Below the pieces are notes generated by a model that was given only the letters and a program-made list of their open reading frames with translations, was not told where the DNA came from and did not search any database. From an uncultured virus (IMG/VR IMGVR_UViG_3300025660_000004) (lineage: Duplodnaviria; Heunggongvirae; Uroviricota; Caudoviricetes): a DNA stretch of 64,000 nt. The stretch lies in IMG/VR virus record IMGVR_UViG_3300025660_000004; one strand, given 5' to 3'. A program made the translations under genes and the position numbers. How positions within the stretch are numbered: the first letter of the stretch is position 1; each line of letters starts with the position of its first letter. This document shows, piece by piece, positions 7,908 to 59,035 of the stretch.

Positions 7908-8558
7908 TCAGCCCTCGACTGTGATGCCGAGGCCCTCGGCCACCTCCAGCCAGATCGGCAGGTTCGCGGCGGGGTAGAGGTAGAAGGTCACGTCGATGGG
8001 CCAGTCGCGGTAGTCGTGGGCGAGCTGGAGAGCCACCTCGGCACAGACATCGACCGGGCATCCGTAGTCGCCTGCACTGATGGCCGGGTAGGCGATGCTG
8101 GTGCAGCCCATCCCCACAGCGGTCAGCAGCGGCATCTTGTAGCAGGCCCGCAGCGTCGTCCGGGCGACGGTCTCGGCCAGGATGCCCTTCACGCCGATCT
8201 TCATCTGGTTGCCCGCGAGGGCGGACATCGGGTTGTTGGCGATGTAGAGCTTCGCGTCGGGGTCAGACGGCCACACCGGGCCAGCCGTGTGAATGACCCA
8301 CCGGCAGGGCAGGTCGAAGGCGGGGACCGGGATCGCTCCACCGTTCGGGACGCGGATGTTGGTGATGGGGGAGAGGCCGGGGCCGTAGCCCTCGCCCTCT
8401 GTGAAGGGCAGCGTCAGGCAGGCTGCGAGCAGACCCGGACCAGCCGCACGGTGGATGGCTCCATCGGCCCCGCCGCCGCCGAGTCCCGCGTTGTTGGCCG
8501 GGTTGACGATGGCGTCGCCGCCGAACGTGGTGATGTCGCCTGCGATGAGTCTGATCAT
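7908..8558 (-). CDS. macrodomain protein (ADP-ribose binding/hydrolase, YmdB-like)
   Basis: GDIT, DAIVNPAN, GGGGADGAIHRAAG, VIHTAGP, SIAYPAISAGDYG. Confidence 0.92.
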   Translation of the reverse strand: MIRLIAGDITTFGGDAIVNPANNAGLGGGGADGAIHRAAGPGLLAACLTLPFTEGEGYGPGLSPITNIRVPNGGAIPVPAFDLPCRWVIHTAGPVWPSDPDAKLYIANNPMSALAGNQMKIGVKGILAETVARTTLRACYKMPLLTAVGMGCTSIAYPAISAGDYGCPVDVCAEVALQLAHDYRDWPIDVTFYLYPAANLPIWLEVAEGLGITVEG

Positions 8559-25634: not shown

Positions 25635-25679
25635 AGAGGCACAGGACGACCAGCAAGCATCAACGGAGTGAACGAAGAC

Positions 25680-27233
25680 ATGGCCCCCAAGATCGTCAGA
25701 CAATGCACCCTTCAGAACACCGACCTCACCGGCAAGGTGAGCGGTTGCACGACCCTCGGATCGAACAAGTTCTGGAAGGGCTGGGTCGAGGATCTCGGCA
25801 ACGGCTCCGCGAACTTCTGCTGCCAGTGGGGAGCCACGGGCACCCCCGGCAAGACCACCGGCTCCAAGCACGGCATCAGCCTCTCCGCTGCCATCGCCCT
25901 CTACGACAAAAAGCGCAAGTCGAAGCTGTCGCCCAAGAAGGGTTACACGGAGCTGGAAGTCCGCGACGACGCCGAAGAGGCCGCCAAGGCGAAGGCCGCT
26001 GGAGTCGTCATCCCCACCAAGGCCAAGGCGAAGGCCAAGGCGGTCAAGGCCCGCACCTTCGACCCGGCGGTGTCCACCCTCCTTCACACCATCTACCAGT
26101 CCACGGCGAACACCGTCCGACGCGGCCTCTCCGCGCAGGCGGGTTCCACCGACGACAACCCCATCGGCAACCTCTCCGACCGTCAACTCGACATCGGCGG
26201 TGGCCGACTGGACGAAGTCGAAGCCGTGCTGGTCGCTGAGTTCGGTCGCGAGACGGCTGACAACAAGGGCCAGACGCTCCCGCTGGGCCGCGACGGTGCC
26301 CCCTCCGACCGCATCATCACCCTGACCAACGAGTACATGAGCAACGTCCCCCGGAGCATCGACCGGGCGGATCGTGGCCTTCGGAACCTCCACCGTCTCG
26401 TCATCAGCAGCTTCGAGCGGCTGGCCGAGCAGCGGCGATTCCTTCAGCTTCTCCGCGACGCCCACGTCGCCAAGGCGGTCTTCGCACAGGCGGCGGTCCA
26501 GACATCGACGGGCGGCAAGGAGGCGGTCTGGTACGACGGTCTCGGCTGCGACATCGAGGCTCTGCGACCCGGAAGCGACGACTACAAGTTCGTGGCCCGC
26601 GTGTTCAACAACCAGCAGTCCCGCCACAACGCGAACTGGTGGCGTGGCAGCAAGTCCCGCCTCCGCATCGTCCGGGTCTTCAAGTTCAGCCGTCAGGGCA
26701 CCGAGGCTGCGTTCCTGAAGTACGCCAAGAGCGTCAAGGCCAAGCGGGGAGCCACCGGCAACATCTTCGCCTGGCACGGCACCCGCACCCCGAACCTGCT
26801 CGGCATCGGTAAGAGCGGGCTCCTGATGCCCGAAAACCTGCCTCGCGGCGTCCACACGACCGGCAAGGCGTTCGGCAACGGCATCTACCACGCCCCCGCG
26901 TGGAACGCGACCGACACCAAGATCGTCGCCGGGAACAAGACCGATGGGACCAACGGTGCCCTGAAGTCCATGAACTACACCGGCCACCACGCCAGCTACT
27001 ACGGAGGCTCCGGCACCGGCAACGCCTTCATGTACCTCCAGGAGGTCGCTCTCGGCATCCCGGACGTGCGGCACTCGGCCTGCTTCAACCAGCGACGCCC
27101 GAACGGCTGGCCCCAGAAGGACTGGACCTACGCCAACGCGGGCGGCTGCCGCACCCTGACCCACGACGAAGTCGTGACCTACGACGAGAACGCGCAGATG
27201 TTCCGCTACCTCGTCGAAATCGCGGTGGACTAG
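25680..27233 (+). CDS. WGR-domain poly(ADP-ribose) polymerase-like ADP-ribosyltransferase
   Basis: WGR-like SNKFW..QWG..KKGY; regulatory-like PIGNLS..LTNEYMSNVP; catalytic WHGTR, GKAFGNGIY, KSMNY, DEVVTY (H-Y-E triad). Confidence 0.9.
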   Translation: MAPKIVRQCTLQNTDLTGKVSGCTTLGSNKFWKGWVEDLGNGSANFCCQWGATGTPGKTTGSKHGISLSAAIALYDKKRKSKLSPKKGYTELEVRDDAEEAAKAKAAGVVIPTKAKAKAKAVKARTFDPAVSTLLHTIYQSTANTVRRGLSAQAGSTDDNPIGNLSDRQLDIGGGRLDEVEAVLVAEFGRETADNKGQTLPLGRDGAPSDRIITLTNEYMSNVPRSIDRADRGLRNLHRLVISSFERLAEQRRFLQLLRDAHVAKAVFAQAAVQTSTGGKEAVWYDGLGCDIEALRPGSDDYKFVARVFNNQQSRHNANWWRGSKSRLRIVRVFKFSRQGTEAAFLKYAKSVKAKRGATGNIFAWHGTRTPNLLGIGKSGLLMPENLPRGVHTTGKAFGNGIYHAPAWNATDTKIVAGNKTDGTNGALKSMNYTGHHASYYGGSGTGNAFMYLQEVALGIPDVRHSACFNQRRPNGWPQKDWTYANAGGCRTLTHDEVVTYDENAQMFRYLVEIAVD

Positions 27234-35252: not shown

Positions 35253-35666
35253 TCAGAGGAGCTTCAGATGGCCCGTGATGGGGTTGATGCTCTCGGCCTC
35301 GGCCGGGCCGATGGCGATGGCGGTCCGGGTCTTGACGCCCTTGAACACCGTCTTGCCGACATCCTCGACCAGGGCACAGGGGAGACCCGCCAGGGTGGCC
35401 TTGTTGAACAGGGCCATCAGCTCCTCTTCGGAGCCGACCTGGACGACGACCTTCGTGAAGATCCCCCCGACCCACTCGGCCATCGCCGGGGTCAGAGGGA
35501 CATCGAGCCAGTGCTCGTCCGGGATCTTGCCCTCAGGGTCCTCTGATGTCTGCACGGAGCATCGGGTGAAGAACACCTTCATGGAGGCGTGTGCCCCCTG
35601 CGCGATCATCTTCCCCGGCTCCATGCCGATGTCGGTTCGGATGACGATGATCTGCTTGGTGTTCAT
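35253..35666 (-). CDS. pth2: peptidyl-tRNA hydrolase type 2
   Basis: KQIIVIRTD..GKMIAQGAHAS, KVVV, D.G.T.F, TAIAIGP, ITGHLKLL. Confidence 0.92.
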   Translation of the reverse strand: MNTKQIIVIRTDIGMEPGKMIAQGAHASMKVFFTRCSVQTSEDPEGKIPDEHWLDVPLTPAMAEWVGGIFTKVVVQVGSEEELMALFNKATLAGLPCALVEDVGKTVFKGVKTRTAIAIGPAEAESINPITGHLKLL

Positions 35667-35908
35667 CGGACCAGCTCTCCAACGAGCAGCAGCTCGTAGT
35701 TCCAGTAGGGGGCCACCGTCTTCGTACCGTGCCGGACCCACACGAGGATGTGGTTTTCTTCAGAGGCGGTCGTCTCCAGCCCGATGATGCGGCCCGTGGC
35801 TCCGTCCTTCCGGGCGTCCATGTGCTCCGGGCCACACAGCATCCCCTTGGTCGAAGCGATGTGGGTGACGCGGACGATGTTGCCGACCGTCACCTCGTCA
35901 GACCGCAA
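35663..35908 (-). CDS. hypothetical protein
   Basis: 81-aa ORF coupled in operon. Confidence 0.5.
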   Translation of the reverse strand: MRSDEVTVGNIVRVTHIASTKGMLCGPEHMDARKDGATGRIIGLETTASEENHILVWVRHGTKTVAPYWNYELLLVGELVR

Positions 35909-36401
35909 ACTGCTCCTCCAGCATCTCGGCCAGCGTGCAGAGGGTTCGGGTCGTCACCGTCTCGCGGGCCTCGTTGCGGTCCAGCAAGTCGAGTTCGATC
36001 CGGCCACCCACGGAGAAGGGGCCGACGACGACGTTGAAGTAGGCGTGGGCCTCCGTGATGCCTGCCTCCGGCCAGGGCTCTGCGTAGCCCGTGACCGCGA
36101 TGACGCACTCGGCGTTCATGCGGTTCTGCGCACCGAGGCACATCTGGAGGGCGATCTCGTCGGAGACGCAGTTGCACGCGGCTGCCTGCTCGCGGTTCAC
36201 ACCGAGCAGCTCGACCTTCTGGTCGATGTTGTAGGCCACGATGCCACCCTGGAGGTACTTCGACGAGCCCGGCGTGTCGGCGATGGCGGCCGAGATCATC
36301 CCGGCGGTCAGGCTCTCGGCCGTTGCCACCCGGAAGCCCCGCGCGATGGCGATCCGGTGGATGGTGTTCAGGGCTCCGCGACGGTCTTGCGTGTTGCTCA
36401 T
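35898..36401 (-). CDS. cinA: CinA C-terminal domain protein (PncC-like NMN deamidase)
   Basis: ATAESLTAG, PGSS.Y..GGIVAY, K.ELLGV, IAVTGYA. Confidence 0.85.
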   Translation of the reverse strand: MSNTQDRRGALNTIHRIAIARGFRVATAESLTAGMISAAIADTPGSSKYLQGGIVAYNIDQKVELLGVNREQAAACNCVSDEIALQMCLGAQNRMNAECVIAVTGYAEPWPEAGITEAHAYFNVVVGPFSVGGRIELDLLDRNEARETVTTRTLCTLAEMLEEQFAV

Positions 36402-36601
36402 GCGACCCTGCTCCGGGCCTGGCCCGATGGTGTGAAGAACCACTCGTAGCGACCGACGATGTGGGCCTCGACCTCGGCGTGCAGCCGACCTTCGAGGACA
36501 GCATCGCCGTTGATTTCGAGGACGTAGTTGAGCTGCTGACGCTCTGCCGCGTCCAGACCGGGCTGCGTCAGCAGCTTCACCACCATGTCGTGCAGTGTCA
36601 T
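36398..36601 (-). CDS. hypothetical protein
   Basis: AGGAG RBS; ATGA coupling. Confidence 0.55.
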   Translation of the reverse strand: MTLHDMVVKLLTQPGLDAAERQQLNYVLEINGDAVLEGRLHAEVEAHIVGRYEWFFTPSGQARSRVA

Positions 36602-39547: not shown

Positions 39548-39576
39548 GGGCTCAGACCCGACCCCCGGCGAGTAGT
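39548..39576 (+). promoter_or_regulatory. phage promoter motif (drives non-coding region)
   Basis: GGGCTCAGA-N14-AGTAGT. Confidence 0.75.
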
Positions 39577-39734
39577 CCCGTCAGGCGACCATGGGGGACT
39601 GTAAACCCCCCGAACGGTAGCTGTACGTCAAGTCTTCGTGCGTGGCGGGTGGAGTCGGCCTTTGGTGGTCGGACCCCGTTCTCGTCTGCGTAGTGGAGCG
39701 GGAGATCGGCCGTCGTCGAGGAGACTGAGCCCCC

Positions 39735-39807
39735 TGGCGTGTAGCTCAACTGGCTAGAGCGCCGAGAACAAACCTTGGGTGTGTGGGTTCGAGTCCCACC
39801 TTGCCGA
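39735..39807 (+). tRNA. atypical tRNA (nominal anticodon CAA, loop AACAAAC lacking U33)
   Basis: TAGCTCAACTGGCTAGAGC D-arm; GTGGG-TTCGAGT-CCCAC T-arm; imperfect acceptor stem; no CCA. Confidence 0.6.
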
Positions 39808-39813
39808 TAAAGG

Positions 39814-39842
39814 GGGCTCAGTCTCCATCCCTCGCCCGTAGT
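39814..39842 (+). promoter_or_regulatory. phage promoter motif
   Basis: GGGCTCAGT-N14-CGTAGT. Confidence 0.72.
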
Positions 39843-39871: not shown

Positions 39872-40561
39872 ATGAGCGAGCCCACCCCCCTGACCGACAT
39901 CGAGAAGCAAGTACAGGCACGCCTGTGCAGCCGCCGCAGCCGTGGCTACGGGGGCAGGCCCTCCCACATGCAGCGAGCCGACGCCAGCACGCTCGGCTAC
40001 CGCTTCGCGGACGCCCACCGGGGCGGCCCCATCTACTCGCCCTTCGGCGGGTTCGATGTCGACCAGCAGGTCGAGTGGGCCATGCGGGTCCTCAACTACC
40101 TCACCGAGCAGCACATCACCGTGCCCGGCCACCCCACCACCCCTTGCGGCTACGACTCCAAGTGGGCCGACGCCAAGGCCCGCATCGAGGCTCTGTACGC
40201 CGAGCAGTTCGAGGCTGCCCGCACCGAACTCCAGGAGGAGTACGACGCTGACCCCAAGGGCTTCCGTGGATGGAACGAAGATGCCACCGTCGAGGATGGC
40301 AAGGTCACGAACCCGTGGGCCACGACCTTCACCGCCGCTGCCGACTGGTTCCTGGCGAACATGACGCAGTACACGGTGTTCACCGTCTGGCAGGCCTGCT
40401 TCGACGCTGCCGAAGAGTGCGTCCGCGAGAACCTCGGCCTCTGGGCCGAAGGCGGCACCGACTCCAACCCGCAGCAGGAGGCCGCTGATACCTTCGAGGC
40501 GTCGATGCGGAACCTCTCCGAGTACATCGACGCCTGCGTCAAGGAGGCCGCTGCCGCGTGA
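39872..40561 (+). CDS. hypothetical protein
   Basis: GGAG RBS; 229 aa. Confidence 0.7.
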   Translation: MSEPTPLTDIEKQVQARLCSRRSRGYGGRPSHMQRADASTLGYRFADAHRGGPIYSPFGGFDVDQQVEWAMRVLNYLTEQHITVPGHPTTPCGYDSKWADAKARIEALYAEQFEAARTELQEEYDADPKGFRGWNEDATVEDGKVTNPWATTFTAAADWFLANMTQYTVFTVWQACFDAAEECVRENLGLWAEGGTDSNPQQEAADTFEASMRNLSEYIDACVKEAAAA

Positions 40562-41064
40562 AGGTCGTCTTCCTCGACTTCGATGGAGTCATCAACCGCA
40601 ACAGCGGTCGGTGGCTCGTTGAGCTTGTGGAGCGGCTGAACCGCATCACCGACCAGACCGGAGCCAAGATCGTCGTCCACTCATCGTGGCGGGCCGACCG
40701 TTCCGTGGAGGAGCTACGCCGGGTCCTGACCACCTACCACTACGGCCAACCCGTGACCGGCGAGGTCTACGACGCCACCCCCTTCCCCGTCCACAGCATG
40801 ACGCCTGCGGGCATCTGGGTGGACGACGGCGGGTGGGCCGACTTCAAGGGAGACATCGAGAGCAACGACGAGCGGTGCATCTCCATCCAGCGGTGGCTCG
40901 ACGCCCATCCCGGCCTTGTGACGAAGTACGTGATTCTTGATGACTCCCCGGACCTGGGCCACTTCGTCGGCACCCCGGCCTACATCCAGACCATCCAGAA
41001 CGTCGGCCTGACCGACAGCCACGTCATGCGGGCCGTCTACCACCTCAACGGAGTGACCTGGTGA
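40558..41064 (+). CDS. HAD-domain protein (Swiss Army Knife RNA-repair HAD-like)
   Basis: VFLDFDGVI, IVVHSSWR, YVILDD, GLT. Confidence 0.8.
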   Translation: MKVVFLDFDGVINRNSGRWLVELVERLNRITDQTGAKIVVHSSWRADRSVEELRRVLTTYHYGQPVTGEVYDATPFPVHSMTPAGIWVDDGGWADFKGDIESNDERCISIQRWLDAHPGLVTKYVILDDSPDLGHFVGTPAYIQTIQNVGLTDSHVMRAVYHLNGVTW

Positions 41065-41504
41065 CCTGGTTCGCCCGCCTGAAGGCCCTCGTCACCGGCT
41101 GGCTCCACACGCCAGAAGGCGATGACCCCTTCGCGGAGCTGGAGGCCGCTGGCTTCCAGCGCGTCTACCTCATGGGCAAGGACGGGCAGCACTACGTCGC
41201 CTCCGACCTGGTCGGCCTGTGGGTCGAGGACCACGGCCGCTGCCTGCGGTTCAAGGCCAGCGTCTACGACCCGGAAGCCTGGCCCGTGCTGAAGAATCCG
41301 CTGTTCGGCAGCACGATCCGACCGGGCGAGCTGATCCGCCAGTACGTCGCCGACCCCCACCAGTGCTGGTGGAGCGAGGACACCCTGGTCCTGCACCCCT
41401 GCTCGCCAGCACAGCTCCTTGAGCGGCTGGTCGAGGCACCGGGGGAGTGGGAAGTTGCGGCCCGCCACCTGGGCGTTGGCACGCTCCAGTGGTGGGCTCG
41501 CTGA
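41061..41504 (+). CDS. hypothetical protein
   Basis: GTGA-coupled 147-aa ORF. Confidence 0.6.
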   Translation: MTWFARLKALVTGWLHTPEGDDPFAELEAAGFQRVYLMGKDGQHYVASDLVGLWVEDHGRCLRFKASVYDPEAWPVLKNPLFGSTIRPGELIRQYVADPHQCWWSEDTLVLHPCSPAQLLERLVEAPGEWEVAARHLGVGTLQWWAR

Positions 41505-41508
41505 TAGG

Positions 41509-41704
41509 TACACGCGGGAGGACTCGAACCTCCACCCTTCACGCCTCACGGGCATCCGCAGTCTTCCAGGGAGCGACCCCTTCCAGCCTGCTTGAACCCG
41601 AGGTCTGACACCGCACAGTGGAGGCCGAGGGTGGAACCCCCACACGGCCTGTTGCGCTTGGTCTTGCCTGGACGTGACGCTCTACCACTTGGAGCTACAC
41701 GCGC
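41509..41704 (-). ncRNA. tRNA-scaffold RNA with ~130-nt insert replacing the anticodon loop
   Basis: Acceptor GCGCGTG/CGCGTGT, D-arm GCTC..GAGC, TCACG/CGTGA stem, GGAGG-TTCGAGT-CCTCC T-arm. Confidence 0.7.
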
Positions 41705-41710
41705 AAAAGA

Positions 41711-41911
41711 TACGCTGGGGAGGACTCGAACCTCCGACCCCCAACGGTGGCCCCGGTGCTTGGATGATTGAGGAGCGACCCCGTCCGCACACCTTCGGGT
41801 TTCCCCTTCGTGACCAGCCCACTCGCAGGGGGTGACGCCCCCCATCTGCGACCGAACTGGTCAGTCCGGTTTCACCACCCCTGGCGCTCTAACCAACTGA
41901 GCTACCAGCGC
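41711..41911 (-). ncRNA. tRNA-scaffold RNA with ~135-nt insert replacing the anticodon loop
   Basis: Acceptor GCGCTGG/CCAGCGT, TAGCTCAGTTGGTTAGAGC, GGAGG-TTCGAGT-CCTCC. Confidence 0.7.
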
Positions 41912-41916
41912 ATAGG

Positions 41917-41990
41917 CGCGAGGGGTGGGATTTGAACCCACGGCCGACCGGATTTAGAGTCCGGCTGCTGAGCCACTCAGCTTCCCTCGC
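41917..41990 (-). tRNA. amber suppressor tRNA (CUA)
   Basis: Cloverleaf; anticodon arm GCCGGA-CTCTAAA-TCCGGT; T-loop TTCAAAT. Confidence 0.8.
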
Positions 41991-41991
41991 A

Positions 41992-42076
41992 TGGCGCACC
42001 GAGAAGGGATTGAACCTCCGGCCTCCCGACTTGACCCGAAGGCCTATCGGTCGCTCTACCACTGAGCTATCGGTGC
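41992..42076 (-). ncRNA. anticodon-less tRNA-like RNA (UUCG hairpin arm), CCA end
   Basis: GCACCGA/TCGGTGC-GCCA; arm contains GGCC-TTCG-GGTC. Confidence 0.8.
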
Positions 42077-42077
42077 A

Positions 42078-42163
42078 TGGTGCAGGAGGGAGGACTTGAA
42101 CCTCCGACCGTCCGAACGAGCCCGAAGGCTGATCGGCAGCTCTACCAACTGAGCTACTCCTGC
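42078..42163 (-). ncRNA. anticodon-less tRNA-like RNA (UUCG hairpin arm), CCA end
   Basis: GCAGGAG/CTCCTGC-ACCA; arm contains AGCC-TTCG-GGCT. Confidence 0.8.
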
Positions 42164-42164
42164 G

Positions 42165-42250
42165 TGGTGCCGAGGGAAGGGGTTGAACCTCCGACCCCCT
42201 GTCGTCACCCCGAAGGGGCGACAGGCGCTCTACCACTGAGCTACCTCGGC
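42165..42250 (-). ncRNA. anticodon-less tRNA-like RNA (UUCG hairpin arm), CCA end
   Basis: GCCGAGG/CCTCGGC-ACCA; arm CCTGTCG-CCCC-TTCG-GGGTGA-CGACAGG. Confidence 0.8.
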
Positions 42251-42251
42251 A

Positions 42252-42328
42252 TGGTGCGGGGACCGGGAGTTGAACACCGGGCCTACGGCTGGCGAGCCAG
42301 CCGTCGCTCTGCACTGAGCTATCCCCGC
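42252..42328 (-). ncRNA. anticodon-less tRNA-like RNA (closed hairpin arm), CCA end
   Basis: GCGGGGA/TCCCCGC-ACCA; arm ACGGCTGG-CTCG-CCAGCCGT. Confidence 0.78.
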
Positions 42329-42337
42329 AAGACTTCA

Positions 42338-42640
42338 CTACGCAGCCCTCCGTTCCTCCTGCCCGAGCAGGGGCAGGTTCATGCGGCCAGCGTCCGTAGC
42401 GAACGCGGTGGCCTGGTCCTTGAGGTCCGGCTCCCGCCAGAGGATCGTTCGGCCCCCATCGGGCACCAGGTCGAGAAGCTCCCGTTCGGAGCCGACCCCG
42501 TAGACGATGACGGTGCCCCGCTGCGGGCCGTACCGGGCCGACCACTCATCCATCGCGTGAATCGCCTGGGCCATCGCCCGCCCCAACCCCACATCGGTCC
42601 GCACGACGAAGTACAACCGATTGGTTGTCTTGACGCTCAT
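42338..42640 (-). CDS. Pth2-like protein (divergent)
   Basis: LYFVVRTDVGLGRAMAQAIHA, VIVY.V.SE.EL, WREPDL..TA. Confidence 0.7.
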   Translation of the reverse strand: MSVKTTNRLYFVVRTDVGLGRAMAQAIHAMDEWSARYGPQRGTVIVYGVGSERELLDLVPDGGRTILWREPDLKDQATAFATDAGRMNLPLLGQEERRAA

Positions 42641-42681
42641 GCTGCCCTCCCCGTACACTCGTGACGCAAGCGGGAGGCTAC

Positions 42682-43386
42682 ATGAAGATCGTCCCAGGAA
42701 TGGTGTTCCACCACCTCGAAGTCCTTCACCAGGGACCGTCCGACCCGTCGCGCACGACCCGCTGGTTCTGTGGTTGCATCTGCGGAGCTGAGACTCTGGT
42801 GCGCTCTTCGGCCCTGCGGAGCGGGCACTCGCAGTCGTGCGGCTGCATGGGCAAGGCCCGCCTTGAGCGGGACAAGACCTACAACGCCTGGAGTGCCATG
42901 CGGCAGAGGTGCCGTAACCCGAACAATCCTGCGTGGCCGAACTACGGTGGCCGGGGCATCTCGGTAGCCCCGGAATGGGACGACTTCGAGACGTTTCTTC
43001 GGGAGGTTGGCCCAGCTCCGAGTCTCCAGTTCAGCCTCGACCGGAAGGACCACAACGGCAACTACGAGCCCGGCAACGTGCGATGGGCGAGTTCCCGCCA
43101 GCAAGCCCGGAACCGCCGTAGCAACTGCGTGGTGGAGTTCAACGGTGTGACACAGACCCTCGCGGCCTGGTCCGAGCAAACGGGCATCTCCCGTGCGGTG
43201 CTTCAGTGGCGGCTGAAGAACTGGGACATCCCGCGTGCTCTCACTACTCCGGTGAAGTCCAGGAGGGCTCCCCGCAGGGCGGCGGAGGACAAGGCCAAGC
43301 TCATCACTCGTGCTGAGACCGAGGTTGAGGCGGCTCGGACCGCCCTCCGGGTAGCCGAACAGCGGTTGGCCGAAGTCCGGGCCTAG
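42682..43386 (+). CDS. HNH-type homing endonuclease
   Basis: CICG..L.SG.SQSCGC, W.AM.QRC.NP, YGGRGI, SLDRKDHNGNYEPGNVRWA..QARN. Confidence 0.88.
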   Translation: MKIVPGMVFHHLEVLHQGPSDPSRTTRWFCGCICGAETLVRSSALRSGHSQSCGCMGKARLERDKTYNAWSAMRQRCRNPNNPAWPNYGGRGISVAPEWDDFETFLREVGPAPSLQFSLDRKDHNGNYEPGNVRWASSRQQARNRRSNCVVEFNGVTQTLAAWSEQTGISRAVLQWRLKNWDIPRALTTPVKSRRAPRRAAEDKAKLITRAETEVEAARTALRVAEQRLAEVRA

Positions 43387-43455
43387 CTGCGCGGCCCGGC
43401 GGCCCTCACCGATGTCGGTGCGGGTCACGAAGTAGAGGCGGTCGTCGCGGGCCAT
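43384..43455 (-). pseudogene. N-terminal fragment of a Pth2-like paralog abutting the HNH gene
   Basis: MARDDRLYFVTRTDIGEGRRAAQL matches the N-terminus of 42338..42640. Confidence 0.6.
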
Positions 43456-44186
43456 CAGCTTGCCTGCCGGAACAGGTCAGCGATGCCGTCCGTGGGTCGG
43501 GTGTCTTCGGCCTCCTGGGCCTCCTCCAGCTCGCGCTTCGCAGCCCACCACGCCTCGTTCGCCACCCGGACTCTGGCAGCGGAGGCGTCGTAGTCCGCCT
43601 GCCTCCGCTCGACCGTCTTCTGGGCCGCACGGAGCGCGGAGGAGGCAATCCCGCAGCGACGGGTCTGCTCGTCGAACTCGCCCTTGAGCTTCGCGATCTC
43701 GGACCGCTTCTGGTCGAGCGCGACGAGGCCAGCGATGCCCTTGTCCTGGATGTAGGAGAGGCGCAGGTTGCCGCTCTTCAGCCACGCCTGGGCGATGGCC
43801 TCGGAGTGCTTCTGCTCGCCTGCGGGGAGGTGGGGACGGATGTACCCGCCGATGACCGTGAAGTCGGCGTCGGGGGTCTTGTGGGGGTTCCGCTTCGACT
43901 CGCACTGCTCGTAGGTCTTCCCGTTGAGAAGGGCCGCCGCGAGATGCGCGTGCCGCCGTTCGTTTCGGGAGTCCTCGGCCTGGTCGAGGAGGTCGATGCC
44001 CGCCGTGTGGCGGCACCAGCCCTGAGCGATGAGACGCTCGGCCTTGACCTTGTTGCTGTCGCGGAGTTCGCGGCCGTCCTTGCGGAGCTTGCGGCCGGAG
44101 ATGATGAGGCGAGACGCCTCGTGACGCTGGGCCGCCGTGAGGCGGCTGTTGACGTTGATCTGTGAGCTGAGGGCGCTGTGAATCAT
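43455..44186 (-). CDS. hypothetical protein with coiled-coil C-terminus
   Basis: GGAG RBS; RHAHLAAALLNGKTYEQCE. Confidence 0.7.
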   Translation of the reverse strand: MIHSALSSQINVNSRLTAAQRHEASRLIISGRKLRKDGRELRDSNKVKAERLIAQGWCRHTAGIDLLDQAEDSRNERRHAHLAAALLNGKTYEQCESKRNPHKTPDADFTVIGGYIRPHLPAGEQKHSEAIAQAWLKSGNLRLSYIQDKGIAGLVALDQKRSEIAKLKGEFDEQTRRCGIASSALRAAQKTVERRQADYDASAARVRVANEAWWAAKRELEEAQEAEDTRPTDGIADLFRQAS

Positions 44187-44308: not shown

Positions 44309-44336
44309 ATCCTAATGACCCCGGAGGGTCTGTCAA
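44309..44336 (-). promoter_or_regulatory. possible sigma70-type promoter
   Basis: TTGACA-N16-TAGGAT. Confidence 0.4.
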
Positions 44337-44560: not shown

Positions 44561-44637
44561 TGGTGCTCTCGGCGGGACTCGAACCCGCGACCTACGGATT
44601 TAGAGTCCGTTGCATCTACCAACTGAGCTACGAGAGC
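44561..44637 (-). tRNA. amber suppressor tRNA (CUA) with encoded CCA
   Basis: GCTCTCG/CGAGAGC-ACCA; ACGGA-CTCTAAA-TCCGT; GCGGG-TTCGAGT-CCCGC. Confidence 0.9.
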
Positions 44638-47729: not shown

Positions 47730-48743
47730 TCAATCGGACTTCTGGGAGGCGATCCAGCGACGGGCTACACGGTCCACGCGAACGGGGTCCTGAGTGCTGG
47801 CGATGACTCTGGCAGCCATCTTGACCACCTGGACGGCCGGAGCCGGACCATGCCCATCCCACGGCTTGCCGGGGGACTTCGCCTCGTCGATGACCTCGGA
47901 GAACCATCGCTGGTCGAAGTCCCGCATGTACCCCTCGTCGGAGTCCATCTGCGCGGGGCCTTCGATCTTGCCGATCTCCTTGGGGTCGGTCTCGAAGGCC
48001 GCTCGCTTCTGGTTGCAGGTCGAGAGCTGACCGTCGAGGTAGCTCATCAGCCGCGAGAGGGCCGTCTTCCAGTTCTTGATGGCTCCGGTGTCGATCTCGC
48101 CACCCAGGAGGGCGTCCGCCCGGCCCTGCATGTGCGCGATGTTGTCCTTGATCTTCTTGGCCATGGACGAGTCAGCGGAGGCCAGCTCACGGGCCGCCAG
48201 CGAAGCTGCGTCGTTGAGGGCATCGGAGGCGTCACCGAACTGCATCCGGTTCAGGAACCCCTGCGCCTCCTCCAGGTTGAAGCGGATGTGCCGGAGGGCC
48301 GGGATGCAGAAGGCCGCGTCCTGCACGCCCCACCCGAAGGCCGGGTTGCGGGTCAGACCGATGGGGTACTGCCCACGAGGCAGTTTCTTGCCGTTGGGGG
48401 AGACGTGGCGGGAGCCCCACACGTCGATGTAGCCCTTGCCGGTCTTGGCCCGGTACTTCTTCTGGAGCGCGGCCTGGGCCTGCGACTTGCCGAGGTGGGC
48501 GAACTTGCCGTCCCACTTCGCACCGTCGATGCGCCCGGTGAAGCCGGAGTCGGTCAGGGCACCCCACCGGAACGTGACGCTCCACGTCCCGTCGTCGTTC
48601 TCCAGCATCAGCCCCTCGTAGAACTTCGAGTGGTTCGCACCCGCGTCGATCCAGTAGAGGGCAAAGCCCTCACCCGCACTGACCTTGCGGGCGTCGAGGC
48701 CCTTGTTCGTGAGGATGGGCTTGTTGGCGACCTTGGAGTTCAT
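47730..48743 (-). CDS. WGR-domain protein
   Basis: NHSKFYE..VTFRWGA..KY.AKTGKGY. Confidence 0.75.
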   Translation of the reverse strand: MNSKVANKPILTNKGLDARKVSAGEGFALYWIDAGANHSKFYEGLMLENDDGTWSVTFRWGALTDSGFTGRIDGAKWDGKFAHLGKSQAQAALQKKYRAKTGKGYIDVWGSRHVSPNGKKLPRGQYPIGLTRNPAFGWGVQDAAFCIPALRHIRFNLEEAQGFLNRMQFGDASDALNDAASLAARELASADSSMAKKIKDNIAHMQGRADALLGGEIDTGAIKNWKTALSRLMSYLDGQLSTCNQKRAAFETDPKEIGKIEGPAQMDSDEGYMRDFDQRWFSEVIDEAKSPGKPWDGHGPAPAVQVVKMAARVIASTQDPVRVDRVARRWIASQKSD

Positions 48744-57260: not shown

Positions 57261-57292
57261 GGTGGACATCTCCTGTCCCATCTACCCACTGG

Positions 57293-57322
57293 GGGCTCAG
57301 ATGCACCGCCTACGCGAGTAGT
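57293..57322 (+). promoter_or_regulatory. phage promoter motif (15-nt spacer variant)
   Basis: GGGCTCAGA-N15-AGTAGT. Confidence 0.6.
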
Positions 57323-57350
57323 ATGTCCCGTCAAGCTGACTGGAGACCCT

Positions 57351-57923
57351 ATGCGACCCCGTACCGCCCACCGAATCGTCAGCCGCGTCCAGACCGGCAA
57401 GGTCAAGGCCACCTCGTACACCCGCGAGGATGTGACCAGAGCGTTCGAGACGCTCAAGGTCGATCTGCCCGATGGCCTGCTCAAGCCGTGGGACGATGCC
57501 GACGCGGAGCGTGAGCGCCTGAAGGCACAGCGAGAGGCAGACGCCCCGCTCGTCGCCGAGCGGAAGGCTGCCAAGGTGGCGAAGTTCGCTGAGAAGCAGG
57601 CCGCCAAGGACGCGAAGGCTGCCCGGAAGCAGGCGTTGGAAGCCCAGCAGCGGGCGGACTTCCTGGAGCGGTTCGGCCCCCAGGCCCAGGTCGCCGCAGC
57701 CGCCGGACGCGAGGCGTTCCAGCAGGCCGTCGAGGGGGAGATCGATGAGCTGCCCGAGAGCATCGAACTCGAAGAGGTCGTGACACCGGCTCCGGCCCCC
57801 GACATCAGCGGCATGAACCGCGACGAGCTGCGTGCCGAGTGCAAGCGACGCGGCATGAAGGGCTATTCGTCCTTGAACAAGGCCGGACTCGTCGCCAAGC
57901 TGAAGGCTGACGACGGGCTGTAG
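57351..57923 (+). CDS. protein with C-terminal Rho-N/SAP-like domain
   Basis: ISGMNRDELRAECKRRGMKGYSSLNKAGLVAKL. Confidence 0.7.
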   Translation: MRPRTAHRIVSRVQTGKVKATSYTREDVTRAFETLKVDLPDGLLKPWDDADAERERLKAQREADAPLVAERKAAKVAKFAEKQAAKDAKAARKQALEAQQRADFLERFGPQAQVAAAAGREAFQQAVEGEIDELPESIELEEVVTPAPAPDISGMNRDELRAECKRRGMKGYSSLNKAGLVAKLKADDGL

Positions 57924-58009
57924 CCCTCGTCGGAGCGGCACCATGACCTTCGATCCCACCAAGTACTCCACACCCGAGCGGGTAGCGCCCGCTCTTCGTG
58001 GAGAACAGC

Positions 58010-58357
58010 ATGGGACTCGAATCTCGTCATGGCCGCAGGCGTCGTCTCACCGAGACGATTGCCCGCCGCCGCCGCTCTGACTTCATCCACAGGTGCCTCG
58101 ACGGCGACTCGTCAGGCCACCTGTGGACGACCTCCCCCTACTACTGGGCCAAGAACAGCACCGACCCGTGCAGGTGCGCGAAGCGTCGTCATGGCGTGCC
58201 GCGTCTGTGCAAGGGGATGTGCTGCATCGGTGAACGCAGCCGCATCTACCGGCTCCGGGCACAGGCCCTCGAACTCAAACGGCTGATCCGCCGTGGTGCG
58301 GATCTGGATGGGGACGACGTGGCCTTGCTGTCGCGTGCCCTTGTGAGACCGACATGA
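58010..58357 (+). CDS. basic Cys-containing hypothetical protein
   Basis: GGAG RBS; ATGA overlap with release-factor gene. Confidence 0.6.
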   Translation: MGLESRHGRRRRLTETIARRRRSDFIHRCLDGDSSGHLWTTSPYYWAKNSTDPCRCAKRRHGVPRLCKGMCCIGERSRIYRLRAQALELKRLIRRGADLDGDDVALLSRALVRPT

Positions 58358-59035
58358 AGATCATCATCGAAATCCGTAGTGGCGAGGGCGGCAAGGACGC
58401 CAAGCTCCTCGTGCGCGATCAGGTCGCTCTCTATACGAAATTCGCTGCCCGGAGGTCACTTTGACCTCGACATCCTCACCGACCTCCCCGGTCAGGTCAC
58501 CCTGGTGGCATCGGGCAAGGGCGTCGAACGGGCCTTCCACAACGAGGCAGGAGGCCACCGATACCAGCGGGTCCCGCCGACTGAGAAGCGAGGCAGGGTT
58601 CACACCAGCACCGTCACTGTCGCGGTCCTCGCTGTCCCCGAACAGCGGGAGCTGCGCATCGACCAGAAGGACCTGGAGTGGAAGACCTGCCGGGGCTCTG
58701 GAGCTGGAGGTCAGCACCGGAACACCACCGACTCTGCCGTGCAGCTCACCCACCTCCCCACCGGGGTCAGTGTCCGCTGCGAGAGCGAGAGGAGCCAGCA
58801 CCAGAACAAGGCGTTGGCCCTCGACGTGCTGCGGGCTCGAATCGGCCAGGCTCAGGCGGCAGAGGTACGGACCGGAAGAAACGCGGCTCGGCGGCAGCAG
58901 GTCGGGAGCGGGATGCGGGCCGACAAGGTGCGGACCATCGCCATCCAGCGGGACCAGGTACATGACCACCGGACCGGACGGAGGATGTCGGCCAAGGCGT
59001 ACCTGCGAGGCTCAGTCGATGGGCTGTGGGCCTAG
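58354..59035 (+). CDS. prfA: class I peptide chain release factor homolog (RF1-type, lacking domain 1), requires +1 frameshift at 58459-58465
   Basis: Frame 0 [13 protein letters not shown]..; +1 frame [39 protein letters not shown]. Confidence 0.88.
58451..58465 (+). promoter_or_regulatory. prfB-type programmed +1 frameshift signal
   Basis: GGAGG-TCA-CTT-TGA-C (internal SD, 3-nt spacer, CUU UGA C). Confidence 0.88.

What the first reader, a model, noticed from the sequence alone, without database searches (positions are those of the whole stretch)
41509..41911. Two ~200-nt RNAs: tRNA body with a large structured insert in place of the anticodon
Seen: both keep acceptor, D and T arms but carry about 130 nt between the anticodon-stem strands. 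The inserts differ except for GGGGTCGCTCC, found at the same offset (61 nt from the discriminator; plus-strand 41570-41580 and 41772-41782). The 41509-41704 RNA has G3:U70 and A73, the alanine identity used by tmRNA. The inserts are shorter than typical group I introns and I see no P7-type motifs. Inference: a new ncRNA class using tRNA as a processing or stability scaffold, a mini-tmRNA-like RNA, or an unknown small intron.
Basis: partly seen in the sequence, partly recalled or inferred. Interest (0 to 1): 0.82.

Follow-up and report, generated by a model that had tools for sequence, protein, structure and literature searches.

The report
Insert-bearing tRNA-shaped phage RNAs
Two neighbouring genes in a marine phage keep the whole tRNA body but carry a folded domain of about 130 bases where the anticodon should be, so they cannot read codons and are most likely stable tRNA-scaffolded RNAs like the still unexplained RNA C and RNA D of phage T4.

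Summary
On the minus strand, 41704-41509 (196 nt) and 41911-41711 (201 nt) each have a 7-bp acceptor stem, a D arm and a T arm. Between the anticodon-stem strands lie 129-134 nt. Both share GGGGUCGCUCC 61 nt from the discriminator.

ARAGORN and Rfam report no tRNA, tmRNA, intron or other family there. No excision restores a U33 anticodon loop, so they are not intron-containing tRNAs. I found no tag frame, so the tmRNA reading has no support.

They close a seven-gene array in a marine phage. In four other members a UUCG/CUCG-capped hairpin replaces the anticodon loop, and only one member (CUA) can decode. The array starts 9 nt after a divergent PTH2-type peptidyl-tRNA hydrolase gene. Relatives of that gene in other viral contigs also sit beside capped, insert-bearing or otherwise odd tRNAs. 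The layout mirrors T4, whose tRNA cluster ends in the unexplained RNA D and RNA C.

Best reading: non-decoding, tRNA-scaffolded stable RNAs. Their role is inferred only.

Limits: outside this window the 11-mer belongs to unrelated RNAs and defines no family. I found no homologue of the inserts and no RNA data. This scan noted similar RNAs earlier in two other phages.

The parts
41509..41704 (-). RNA #7, 196 nt. It has a full tRNA body (acceptor 1-7/189-195 with G1.U72, G3.U70 and U6.G67; D arm; T arm GGAGG-UUCGAGU-CCUCC; A73). The anticodon loop is replaced by a three-way junction with hairpin A (RNA positions 42-98) and hairpin B (105-156).
   Evidence: no ARAGORN or Rfam call; fold no better than shuffles
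41711..41911 (-). RNA #6, 201 nt. It has a full tRNA body (G1.U72, G3-C70, A73). The anticodon stem is extended to about 10 bp and leads to hairpin A (49-101), a GGG-GAAA-CCC mini-hairpin (106-115) and hairpin B (119-157).
   Evidence: z -2.97 against shuffles. In the related strain, U57>C and C62>U both keep their pairs (G93, G88) in hairpin A (mapped).
41570..41580 (-). GGGGUCGCUCC in #7. It forms the tip of hairpin B (A124-U137 stem, loop UCGC/UCGCU), flanked by a GGA/GGA internal loop.
41772..41782 (-). GGGGUCGCUCC in #6. It forms the tip of hairpin B (GGGG/CCUC stem, UCGCU loop), at the same 61-nt distance from the discriminator.
41915..41990 (-). Array member #5: a tRNA with a canonical CUCUAAA loop (anticodon CUA) and an unusual 6-bp D stem with a 3-nt loop. 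It is the only member of the array able to decode.
41992..42076 (-). Array member #4: a tRNA-like in which the anticodon loop is replaced by stem, internal loop, 4-bp stem and UUCG. CCA is encoded.
   Evidence: the tetraloop reads CUCG in the related strain
42078..42163 (-). Array member #3: the same kind of UUCG-capped tRNA-like, with encoded CCA.
42165..42250 (-). Array member #2: the same kind of UUCG-capped tRNA-like, with encoded CCA.
42255..42328 (-). Array member #1: a 74-nt tRNA-like whose anticodon arm is an 8-bp stem closed by CUCG. The cap is rebuilt in two related populations and ends in UUCG in both.
   Evidence: variants
42338..42658 (-). Divergent PTH2-type (peptidyl-tRNA hydrolase 2 fold) gene, 106 aa. 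It ends 9 nt before array member #1.
   Evidence: phrog_1866 E 1.5e-6; family profile against PDB Pth2 1rzw/3erj E 3.9e-7; Pfam PTH2 in 3 of 5 family members; model pLDDT 80, and all six Foldseek matches at E <= 0.001 are Pth2 chains, best E 1.6e-4, TM 0.5-0.6
44309..44336 (-). Promoter-like site (TTGACA-16-TAGGAT) upstream of the minus-strand run 43455-44186, PTH2-like gene and array. This is a consensus match only.
   Evidence: 2 sites found against 0.1 expected; no terminator-like site

Best explanation
#6 and #7 are two paralogous genes for non-decoding, tRNA-scaffolded stable RNAs. They lie at the distal end of a seven-gene array of tRNA-shaped genes in a marine, 66% G+C tailed phage.

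Shown: the acceptor, D and T arms are intact. The anticodon loop is replaced by a 129-134-nt multi-hairpin domain. The two domains have diverged except for one hairpin tip, GGGG-UCGCU-CC.

Inferred: the tRNA body serves as the maturation and stability module. RNase P would cut the 5' end, 3' trimming and CCA addition would finish the 3' end, and the elbow would protect the RNA. The insert, above all the conserved hairpin tip, would be the working part, a binding or decoy surface.

The whole array follows a PTH2-like hydrolase gene: four capped tRNA-likes, one amber suppressor and the two insert-bearing RNAs. It looks like a module of the phage-host conflict over tRNA. Which partner it binds is not known.
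For: (1) Anatomy. Both RNAs pass a strict cloverleaf-frame test, and with the arms enforced each insert folds into one long and one shorter hairpin.

(2) They are not decoders. ARAGORN and Rfam tRNA miss them. With stems fixed by the D and T arms, position 33 is C or G in #7 and G in #6 for every possible excision (read).

(3) Context. Four other array members have the anticodon loop replaced by a UUCG/CUCG-capped hairpin, so loss of decoding is the rule in this array and not an accident of two genes.

(4) Conservation pattern. Identity is 19/27 and 24/30 in the body, 13/14 in the motif block and 37/100 and 7/31 in the rest of the insert. In a 98-99% identical strain, the two changes in #6 stems are U.G>C-G and C-G>U.G, and the two changes in #7 fall in unpaired positions (mapped).

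(5) Precedent. The T4 tRNA cluster ends tRNA-Arg, rnaD (119 nt), rnaC (139 nt) on the same strand. rnaC carries a CCGGG-UUCGAAU-CCCGG T arm and an acceptor-like closing stem. A 2022 paper still calls both RNAs 'of yet unknown functions' (PMC9697503, passages).

(6) The kind recurs.
- Two viral records rated 100% complete have such an anticodon-less gene as their only tRNA-family match.
- A 172-nt insert-bearing tRNA-like lies about 150 nt upstream of a PTH2-like gene in L306.
- L189 has 122- and 108-nt tRNA-likes with extra D-loop hairpins (the 122-nt one is an Rfam tRNA hit).

(7) Link to PTH2-like genes. Searching with three family members returned 23 loci, 18 of them unique. Of the 15 unique loci that were not seeds, 4 have a capped or insert-bearing tRNA-like, 9 have a tRNA with a 6-bp anticodon stem and an NUAAWGA loop, 4 have a CUA tRNA, and 2 have none of these within 2.5 kb.
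Against: There are no RNA data: no listed run holding the stretch is RNA.

No homologue of either insert was found in any collection, so there is no covariation test. The only variation comes from one near-identical strain: 4 changes, of which 2 are in stems and both are G-pair transitions, which are common neutral changes.

#7 folds no better than shuffled sequence.

#6 and #7 lack an encoded CCA, although #2-#4 have one.

The 11-mer could be shared through recent gene conversion and not through selection. Outside the window it turns up in unrelated RNAs at about the rate chance allows.

The PTH2-like link may only reflect that such genes live inside tRNA arrays. I had no matched control.

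The decoy or binding role is pure inference.
Confidence: 0.6

Rival explanations
1. They are dead tRNA genes. Two copies of a tRNA gene were disrupted in the anticodon arm by inserted DNA, through a mobile hairpin or cassette or through homing-endonuclease-driven repair, and they no longer make a functional RNA.
For: An HNH endonuclease gene lies at 42661-43386(+) (phrog_374, E 2.9e-60), about 750 bp from the two RNA genes and next to the array, flanked by a duplicated 5' fragment of the PTH2-like gene. The caps of array member #1 differ between closely related populations. #7 folds no better than shuffles. #7 has three G.U pairs in its acceptor stem.
Against: All three remaining arms are intact in both genes, and the 17-nt T arm is identical in the two. 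The body is better conserved than the insert. The related strain keeps both genes with pair-preserving changes. Anticodon-less tRNA-likes are the only tRNA-family gene in two complete phage records, which is hard to explain as debris.
Confidence: 0.17
2. They are tRNAs with an undescribed kind of intron, self-splicing or cut out by phage or host proteins, that is removed to give a working tRNA.
For: The insert sits where bacterial group I and archaeal tRNA introns sit. An RNA-repair-type HAD domain gene (HAD_SAK_2, 40558-41064, E 7e-22) lies 0.5 kb away. In metagenomes the same 11-mer occurs inside 108-nt inserts of tRNA(CCA)-like genes that carry box C/D-like motifs. I recall these as the archaeal tRNA-Trp intron type.
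Against: No group I or other intron family matches at E<=10. No excision leaves a 7-nt loop with U33 and a purine at 37 (sequence). No RUGAUGA/CUGA boxes or bulge-helix-bulge motif appear in #6 or #7 (read by eye). The four short members of the same array cannot give an anticodon loop either. The proteins of the window are of bacterial-phage type (RF-1 domain, PG_binding_1, Peptidase_M23).
Confidence: 0.07
3. They are mini-tmRNA-like RNAs, charged with alanine and acting on stalled ribosomes.
For: #7 has G3.U70 and A73 (sequence). The topology is that of tmRNA, with a tRNA-like domain whose anticodon stem runs on into a large domain. The window is rich in translation-rescue genes: a canonical PTH2 at 35253-35741 (E 2.6e-28), an RF-1-domain protein at 58379-59035 (E 1.1e-31) and the PTH2-like gene.
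Against: ARAGORN finds no tmRNA and Rfam finds none at E<=10. #6 has G3-C70 and no stop codon after RNA position 51. In #7 the only insert stops lie in the anticodon-stem strand, and the frame before them does not end like a degradation tag (sequence). A full D arm is kept, unlike in tmRNA.
Confidence: 0.04
4. It is a DNA-level element, such as an attachment site or a replication or packaging signal built on tRNA-gene sequence, and the RNA fold is irrelevant.
For: Integrases often use tRNA genes. Earlier notes of this scan list many tRNA-derived attachment scars.
Against: Complete 5' and 3' halves with matching acceptor strands are kept in both genes. They form one same-strand array with 1-6-nt spacers, like co-transcribed tRNA genes. 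None of the 70 window ORFs scanned against Pfam carried an integrase-family domain.
Confidence: 0.03

Closest known systems
Phage T4 RNA C (species 1, rnaC) and RNA D (species 2, rnaD)
   Same: They are two stable RNAs larger than tRNA, encoded one after the other at the distal end of the phage's same-strand tRNA gene array. rnaC ends in a T arm plus an acceptor-like stem. Their function is still unknown (PMC9697503, passages). A homing endonuclease gene sits in or beside the cluster in both phages: segB in T4 and an HNH gene here.
   Different: There is no sequence similarity; the phage-collection search gave only tRNA hits in Gordonia phage Jace. T4 rnaC shows no clear D arm, and rnaD shows no T arm in its fold. 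#6 and #7 keep the full cloverleaf body, and their insert sits exactly in place of the anticodon loop. No Rfam model exists for the T4 RNAs, so membership cannot be scored.
tmRNA (SsrA)
   Same: It has a tRNA-like domain whose anticodon stem is replaced by a long helix leading to a large structured domain. #7 carries the G3.U70/A73 alanine identity.
   Different: There is no tag reading frame and no ARAGORN or Rfam call. A full D arm is present. #6 lacks G3.U70. The size is about 200 nt, against roughly 350 nt for tmRNA (recalled).
Intron-containing tRNAs (bacterial group I introns in the anticodon loop; archaeal tRNA-Trp with a box C/D intron)
   Same: A large insert lies within the anticodon arm of a tRNA gene. 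The archaeal-type genes found in metagenomes even contain the same 11-mer, 25-28 nt before the T arm.
   Different: Those genes keep a readable anticodon loop (CUCCAG) and carry splice motifs. #6 and #7 have neither, and there is no group I match.
Capped, anticodon-less tRNA-likes of other viral contigs
   Same: They have the same body, and a closed hairpin or added hairpins in the anticodon or D loop. Several lie next to PTH2-like genes.
   Different: Most carry only a 10-25-nt cap. Only L306 (172 nt) has an insert of comparable size, and its sequence is unrelated.
tRNA-scaffolded RNAs elsewhere: the engineered tRNA scaffold for recombinant RNA, and the tRNA-like/pre-miRNA fusions of murine gammaherpesvirus 68 (both recalled, not looked up)
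   Same: A tRNA fold is used to obtain processing and stability for a passenger RNA.
   Different: One is man-made and the other is eukaryotic and pol III-driven. In the herpesvirus case the passenger lies behind the tRNA-like part, not inside it.

Membership tests
tRNA (Rfam RF00005) | Acceptor, D and T arms in cloverleaf register | tested here: met
   Scanner; constrained folds
tRNA (Rfam RF00005) | 5-bp anticodon stem closing a 7-nt loop with U33 and a purine at 37 | tested here: not met
   129-134 nt lie between the stem strands. No prefix/suffix combination gives U33 (sequence).
tRNA (Rfam RF00005) | Score at or above the gathering threshold (29 bits), or an ARAGORN call | tested here: not met
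   No hit for #6 or #7 at gathering or at E<=10. ARAGORN lists 6 genes in the window, neither of these among them.
tmRNA | tRNA-like domain with G3.U70 | tested here: inconclusive
   Present in #7 and absent in #6 (G3-C70); sequence
tmRNA | Internal tag reading frame ending in a stop codon; detection by ARAGORN or the Rfam tmRNA models | tested here: not met
   stop-codon positions read
Group I intron in a tRNA gene | Match to the group I covariance model (P3-P7 core) | tested here: not met
   No such match among the 16 listed at E<=10 for 41300-42500
Group I intron in a tRNA gene | Ligated exons give a canonical anticodon stem-loop | tested here: not met
   Enumeration on the sequence
Archaeal-type spliced tRNA (bulge-helix-bulge, box C/D intron) | Readable anticodon loop, bulge-helix-bulge at the exon-intron borders, RUGAUGA/CUGA boxes | tested here: not met
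   None seen in #6 or #7 (by eye). The boxes and the CUCCAG anticodon loop are visible in the metagenome tRNA(CCA)-like genes that share the 11-mer; their exon-intron borders were not checked for a bulge-helix-bulge.
T4 RNA C / RNA D kind | Larger-than-tRNA genes at the distal end of a phage tRNA array, on the same strand | tested here: met
T4 RNA C / RNA D kind | Stable, processed RNA in infected cells | not testable with these tools
   No RNA run is listed for this DNA
T4 RNA C / RNA D kind | Sequence or covariance-model homology | not testable with these tools
   No Rfam model covers rnaC or rnaD. blastn against phages gave no T4 hit.
YrlA / bacterial Y RNA | Score at or above the gathering threshold (69 bits); partner Ro/Rsr (TROVE) gene nearby | tested here: not met
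   Hits of 18-27 bits straddle junctions between adjacent genes. No TROVE domain in the 70 window ORFs scanned against Pfam.

The most novel reading that the evidence does not exclude
Large phages carry a so far undescribed module: a PTH2-type hydrolase gene together with non-decoding tRNA-shaped RNAs that are capped, decorated in the D loop or insert-bearing. The module would act as bait in the conflict over tRNA. The RNAs would offer an intact acceptor/T-arm body, and in #6 and #7 also a displayed UCGCU pentaloop, to host tRNA- or RNA-cutting immune effectors. The hydrolase would recycle whatever becomes esterified to their 3' ends. UCGCU is the pentad reported for one MazF-family endoribonuclease (review PMC5408214, passages). 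#6 and #7 would then be RNA anti-toxins on a tRNA scaffold.
Probability: 0.12. Interest if true: 0.85.

Novelty: new variant of a known kind. Interest (0 to 1): 0.62.

Why it matters
Phage tRNA genes have recently been shown to defeat tRNA-cutting host defences (abstracts listed: PMC10264068, PMC11464382, PMC11555353). All those cases concern tRNAs that still decode.

Here most members of a phage tRNA array cannot decode at all, and two carry large conserved-tip domains. If these RNAs are made, they point to a second, RNA-only use of the tRNA fold by phages. They would also give a handle on the 50-year-old question of what T4 RNA C and RNA D do.

The repeated neighbourhood with a PTH2-type hydrolase gives a concrete protein partner to test. 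That neighbourhood includes cultured mycobacteriophages, where the adjacent gene is annotated 'tRNA-OTHER'.

Annotation pipelines currently miss these genes or mislabel them. In this window ARAGORN called the capped ones tRNA-Ala and tRNA-Glu.

Tried and rejected
- Own genome: none is held for this window. Earlier notes near this place: none.

- RNA evidence: no RNA holder is listed among the 20 runs.

- Relatives of this phage:
  - The search for related loci with the 147-aa neighbour found none.
  - The same search with the window's PTH2-like protein found none.
  - With the HAD_SAK_2 protein it gave 11 distant loci (27-38% identity). ARAGORN found 5 tRNAs in 3 of them, and none is capped or insert-bearing.

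- The 11-mer as a family marker was rejected.
  - In IMG/VR it gave 1 hit with the T arm and 8 hits with the D arm, of which 2 are tRNA-likes and 6 look like coding DNA.
The commonest spacings were 12-13 nt (42 of 120), mostly a repeat family, and 25-28 nt (41 of 120), mostly tRNA(CCA)-like genes with 108-nt box C/D-like inserts.
  - In species genomes it gave 27 hits, mostly coding or ordinary tRNA flanks.
  - These numbers are about what chance plus one conserved unrelated family would give.

- sRNA-target idea: the complement of the 11-mer occurs nowhere else in the window. The one 1-mismatch site lies inside a coding region, not at a ribosome-binding site.

- Neighbour proteins: NCBIfam gave 0 families for 13 proteins. 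The protein atlas gave no usable hit for the 147-aa protein.

- TAG recoding as the reason for the two CUA tRNAs was rejected. Among 66 candidate ORFs, 36 end in TAG and 30 in TGA. Most TAG ends are followed by short stretches of low GC3, and the long high-GC3 extensions are those that run into the next gene in frame.

- Literature: six searches listed no paper on anticodon-less or insert-bearing phage tRNA-likes. Subscription journals are not covered by the library.

- Structure comparison of the two inserts by alignment: with only two sequences it cannot tell homology from chance, so I did not score it.
Full report
**What is there**

On the minus strand of 41509-42328 lie seven tRNA-shaped genes, separated by 1-6 nt. 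Rfam's tRNA model finds five of them: #1 42328-42255, #2 42250-42168, #3 42163-42081, #4 42076-41995 and #5 41990-41917, at 44-57 bits. ARAGORN finds four of these.

The two genes of the finding are #6 (41911-41711, 201 nt) and #7 (41704-41509, 196 nt). Neither program calls them, and no other Rfam family matches inside them at E<=10. The weak YrlA hits (18-27 bits, threshold 69) straddle the junctions between neighbouring genes and only reflect the T arm/acceptor/D arm order across two genes.

A scanner of my own asks for a 7-bp acceptor stem, U8, a 4-bp D stem and a 5-bp T stem with a TTCRA loop. In the whole window it recovers #2, #3, #4, #6 and #7, plus one doubtful frame at 39566-39807.

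With the three arms enforced, 129 nt (#7) and 134 nt (#6) lie between the strands of the canonical anticodon stem.

GGGGTCGCTCC occurs exactly twice in the window, once in each gene. Each copy ends 61 nt from the discriminator and 39 nt before the T-loop motif.

The two genes are paralogues. The body is 70-80% identical and the 17-nt T arm is identical. The inserts align at 37 of 100 and 7 of 31 columns, yet the motif block matches at 13 of 14.

#7 has G3.U70 and A73. It also has G1.U72 and U6.G67.

Only #6 is more stable than its shuffles (z -2.97). #7 is not (z 0.07).

**Fold of the inserts (predicted, not proven)**

In both RNAs the anticodon stem runs on for 8-10 bp into a junction. The junction carries a long 5' hairpin of 53-57 nt and a shorter 3' hairpin of 39-52 nt. 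The tip of the 3' hairpin is the shared motif, a four-pair G-rich stem closing UCGCU. #6 has an extra GGG-GAAA-CCC hairpin between the two.

**They are not intron-containing tRNAs**

The D and T arms fix which five bases form each strand of the anticodon stem. Any spliced product would therefore have a loop made of a prefix of the bases after the 5' strand and a suffix of the bases before the 3' strand.

In #7 the second loop base is C for every prefix of two or more bases, and G otherwise. In #6 it is always G. No product has U33. The same holds for #2-#4, where the base is G, C and A respectively.

No group I match appears at E<=10. I saw no box C/D and no bulge-helix-bulge.

**They are not tmRNA-like in any testable respect**

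There is no ARAGORN or Rfam tmRNA call. Only one of the two RNAs has G3.U70. #6 has no stop codon after RNA position 51. The stops in the #7 insert lie in the anticodon-stem strand.

**The array as a whole does not decode**

#2-#4 replace the 7-nt loop by a stem, a small internal loop, a 3-4-bp stem and a C(UUCG)G cap, and they encode CCA. #1 has an 8-bp stem closed by CUCG. Only #5 has a normal loop (CUCUAAA, anticodon CUA), together with an odd 6-bp D stem.

**Origin and natural variation**

No genome is held for the window. Its DNA is found in marine and seawater metagenome runs of 17 studies. Four runs, which may be the source, hold all sampled words. The genes are phage-like, and several act on nucleotides, tRNA or translation:
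- NAD-dependent DNA ligase
- dNMP kinase and thymidylate kinase
- an endolysin-type peptidoglycan-binding domain
- an InPase-domain giant protein
- a PARP/WGR pair and a Macro-domain protein
- a canonical PTH2
- an RF-1-domain protein
- a HAD domain of the RNA-repair 'Swiss army knife' type

One seawater run holds a 98-99% identical strain at a mean word depth of about 4,700. In that strain:
- #6 has U57>C and C62>U. Both lie opposite G in hairpin A, so both pairs are kept. It also has a D-loop change.
- #7 has two changes, both in unpaired positions.
- The tetraloop of #4 reads CUCG instead of UUCG.
- The cap of #1 is rebuilt with six added bases into a 5-bp stem, a 2x2 internal loop, a 3-bp stem and UUCG, the same design as #2-#4.

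A more distant population in two other runs again has UUCG on #1, with several uncompensated stem changes. The caps thus turn over quickly while the body stays. The inserts of #6 and #7 are as conserved as their surroundings, so this comparison is too shallow to test them.

**The 11-mer outside the window gives no family**

- IMG/VR gave one hit with the T arm and two tRNA-likes among eight hits with the D arm.
- The metagenome scan stopped at 120 rows. One common class is a repeat family. The other is a set of 177-nt tRNA(CCA)-like genes with a 108-nt insert after a readable CUCCAG loop, carrying GUGAUGA and CUGA motifs. I recall this type as the archaeal tRNA-Trp box C/D intron.
- The species-genome scan gave 27 hits, mostly coding DNA or ordinary tRNA flanks.

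Given the number of tRNA genes in these collections, this is roughly what chance and one conserved unrelated family would give. I do not count it as support.

**Non-decoding tRNA-likes are common in viral contigs**

Of these, 18 (16 unique) pass the full cloverleaf test.

Two records that IMG/VR rates 100% complete have such a gene as their only tRNA-family match. G001 carries a 95-nt gene with a hairpin in the D loop and a pentaloop anticodon arm. G003 carries an 82-nt UUCG-capped gene.

L189 carries 122- and 108-nt versions with one or two extra hairpins in the D loop plus a UUCG cap. L306 carries a 172-nt version with an insert of about 100 nt in the anticodon arm. Rfam's tRNA model scores the capped, D-loop-decorated and odd-loop tRNA-likes at about 41-61 bits, including the 122-nt gene of L189. 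It does not list the 172-nt L306 gene or the 108-nt L189 gene.

**A recurring neighbour**

The ORF that ends 9 nt before #1 (42338-42658, 106 aa) matches phrog_1866. The same family lies beside the capped tRNA-like in L184, L186 and L208, and the related L199 neighbour aligns with it.

The family is a divergent PTH2 (peptidyl-tRNA hydrolase 2):
- Its profile matches solved Pth2 proteins, 1rzw/3erj at E 3.9e-7 and 2zv3 at E 2.4e-6.
- Pfam PTH2 matches 3 of 5 members.
- A model of the window's protein (pLDDT 80) has six Foldseek matches at E <= 0.001, all Pth2 chains; the best is E 1.6e-4, and TM-scores are 0.5-0.6.

Searching IMG/VR with three members gave 23 loci, 18 of them unique, of which 3 are the seed contigs. 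In the 15 other unique loci:
- 4 have a capped or insert-bearing tRNA-like just upstream of the PTH2-like gene (L294, L305, L306, L312).
- 9 have a tRNA with a 6-bp anticodon stem and an NUAAWGA loop, which ARAGORN reads as anticodon AAU or AAA.
- 4 have a CUA tRNA.
- 2 have none of these.

In cultured phages the family occurs in 231 records, 206 of them Mycobacterium phages, where it is annotated as peptidyl tRNA hydrolase. I inspected two, Phabba and Cane17. In both it is followed by a gene annotated 'tRNA-OTHER'.

I had no matched control. Part of this link may only mean that the gene lives inside tRNA arrays.

**Closest known**

The T4 tRNA cluster ends, on the same strand, with tRNA-Arg, rnaD (119 nt) and rnaC (139 nt). 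rnaC ends in a regular T arm closed by an acceptor-like stem. Rfam has no model for either. A 2022 transcriptome paper still calls them RNAs 'of yet unknown functions' (PMC9697503, passages).

Both clusters also hold a free-standing homing endonuclease gene. In T4 it is segB. Here it is an HNH gene at 42661-43386(+) (phrog_374, E 2.9e-60).

This scan had already noted insert-bearing tRNA-shaped RNAs in a gut phage and in a Pseudomonas phage, with the same comparison to T4. I checked the T4 layout myself. I did not check those other windows.

**How it most likely works**

Shown: the anatomy, the loss of decoding, the array context and the neighbour gene.

Inferred: the array is transcribed from the minus strand, and a promoter-like site lies at 44336-44309. 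It would be cut into units by RNase P and 3' processing as tRNA precursors are, and the tRNA body would make the units stable.

For #1-#4 the body itself must be what matters, because the caps are free to change. For #6 and #7 the insert, and above all the conserved hairpin tip, is the likely working surface.

A role as bait or binding platform in the conflict over tRNA is attractive, given the neighbouring PTH2-like gene, PTH2, RF-1-domain protein, RNA-repair-type HAD and two CUA tRNAs. Nothing here tests it.

The loop UCGCU equals the pentad reported for one MazF-family endoribonuclease (review PMC5408214, passages). Five bases is a weak coincidence, and I give it only as a testable idea.

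**Verdict**

This is a real and well-delimited pair of non-decoding tRNA-shaped genes. They are not a known family, an intron or a tmRNA, and they are best seen as a new variant of the T4 RNA C/D kind. The wider point of interest is that whole sets of capped and decorated tRNA-likes, often next to a PTH2-type gene, recur in phages and go unannotated.

The weak points are the lack of any RNA evidence, the lack of homologues of the inserts, and a function that is only inferred.

Noticed in passing
window 41992-42328 (-): Four tRNA-like genes have an anticodon loop replaced by a hairpin closed with UUCG or CUCG. Three encode CCA. ARAGORN labels three of them tRNA-Ala, tRNA-Ala and tRNA-Glu by reading the cap as an anticodon.
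   Followed up: yes
window 42661-43386 (+) and 43380-43455 (-): A free-standing HNH endonuclease gene (phrog_374, E 2.9e-60) lies between a 25-residue 5' fragment of a PTH2-like gene and the full PTH2-like gene. This looks like a homing-endonuclease insertion with target duplication. The 272-aa minus-strand ORF over this stretch is probably not real.
   Followed up: partly
window 41915-41990 (-) and 44561-44637 (-): There are two tRNAs with a CUA (amber-reading) anticodon in a genome where 36 of 66 candidate ORFs end in TAG, 30 in TGA and none in TAA. Most TAG ends behave as true stops. I have no explanation for why a phage that ends most of its genes in TAG carries amber suppressors.
   Followed up: partly
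window 58379-59035 (+), with an ORF-poor 1.1 kb at 57282-58378: A release-factor-like protein (RF-1 domain E 1.1e-31, partial PCRF) has a PPT tripeptide at the place of the RF1 'PxT' motif (the motif is recalled). Its N-terminal part seems to be missing or broken, because the upstream frame has six TGA and one TAG.
   Followed up: partly
window 39566-39826 (+): A composite region. It holds a weak tRNA (39735-39807, 39 bits) whose loop AACAAAC has A at position 33, enclosed by a 14-bp inverted repeat (39722-39735 / 39812-39825). It is preceded by a hairpin that looks like a tRNA-Tyr anticodon arm (GGGGGACUGUAAACCCCC) and by a second acceptor-like 5' strand at 39567.
   Followed up: partly
window 7908-8558 (-), 25668-27233 (+), 35253-36443 (-), 40558-41064 (+), 47730-48743 (-): A dense set of NAD/ADP-ribose and RNA-end genes: a Macro domain, a PARP with WGR and regulatory domains, a second WGR protein, CinA, a canonical PTH2 and an RNA-repair-type HAD domain.
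   Followed up: no
L294, L295, L296, L299, L300, L302, L305, L306, L309, L312, L313 (IMG/VR), just upstream of PTH2-like genes: These loci hold tRNAs with a 6-bp anticodon stem and a conserved loop NUAAWGA (UUAUCGA in L302). ARAGORN reads the anticodon as AAU, AAA or AUC, that is, with A at position 34. This is an odd and recurrent partner of the PTH2-like gene. In four other loci a CUA tRNA takes its place.
   Followed up: partly
L001 (record G001) and L005 (record G003): Two viral records rated 100% complete have an anticodon-less tRNA-like as their only tRNA-family gene. In G001 it lies between an ORF with an acidic C-terminal tail and, after a short ORF, an ORF opening MKLNIDFETRS that I read by eye as a polymerase/exonuclease gene; neither ORF was run through a tool.
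   Followed up: partly
L017, L019 and about 30 further metagenome loci: These are 177-nt tRNA(CCA)-like genes with a 108-nt insert that contains box C/D-like motifs and the same 11-mer. In L019 such a gene lies about 110 nt behind a fragment of eukaryotic-type LSU rRNA (329 bits), which may be a chimeric contig.
   Followed up: partly
L316 2846-2931 (Mycobacterium phage Phabba): The annotated 'tRNA-OTHER' after the peptidyl tRNA hydrolase gene folds as a three-armed mini tRNA-like: an acceptor stem, one hairpin and a T arm, ending in ACCA. A terminator-like hairpin precedes it.
   Followed up: no
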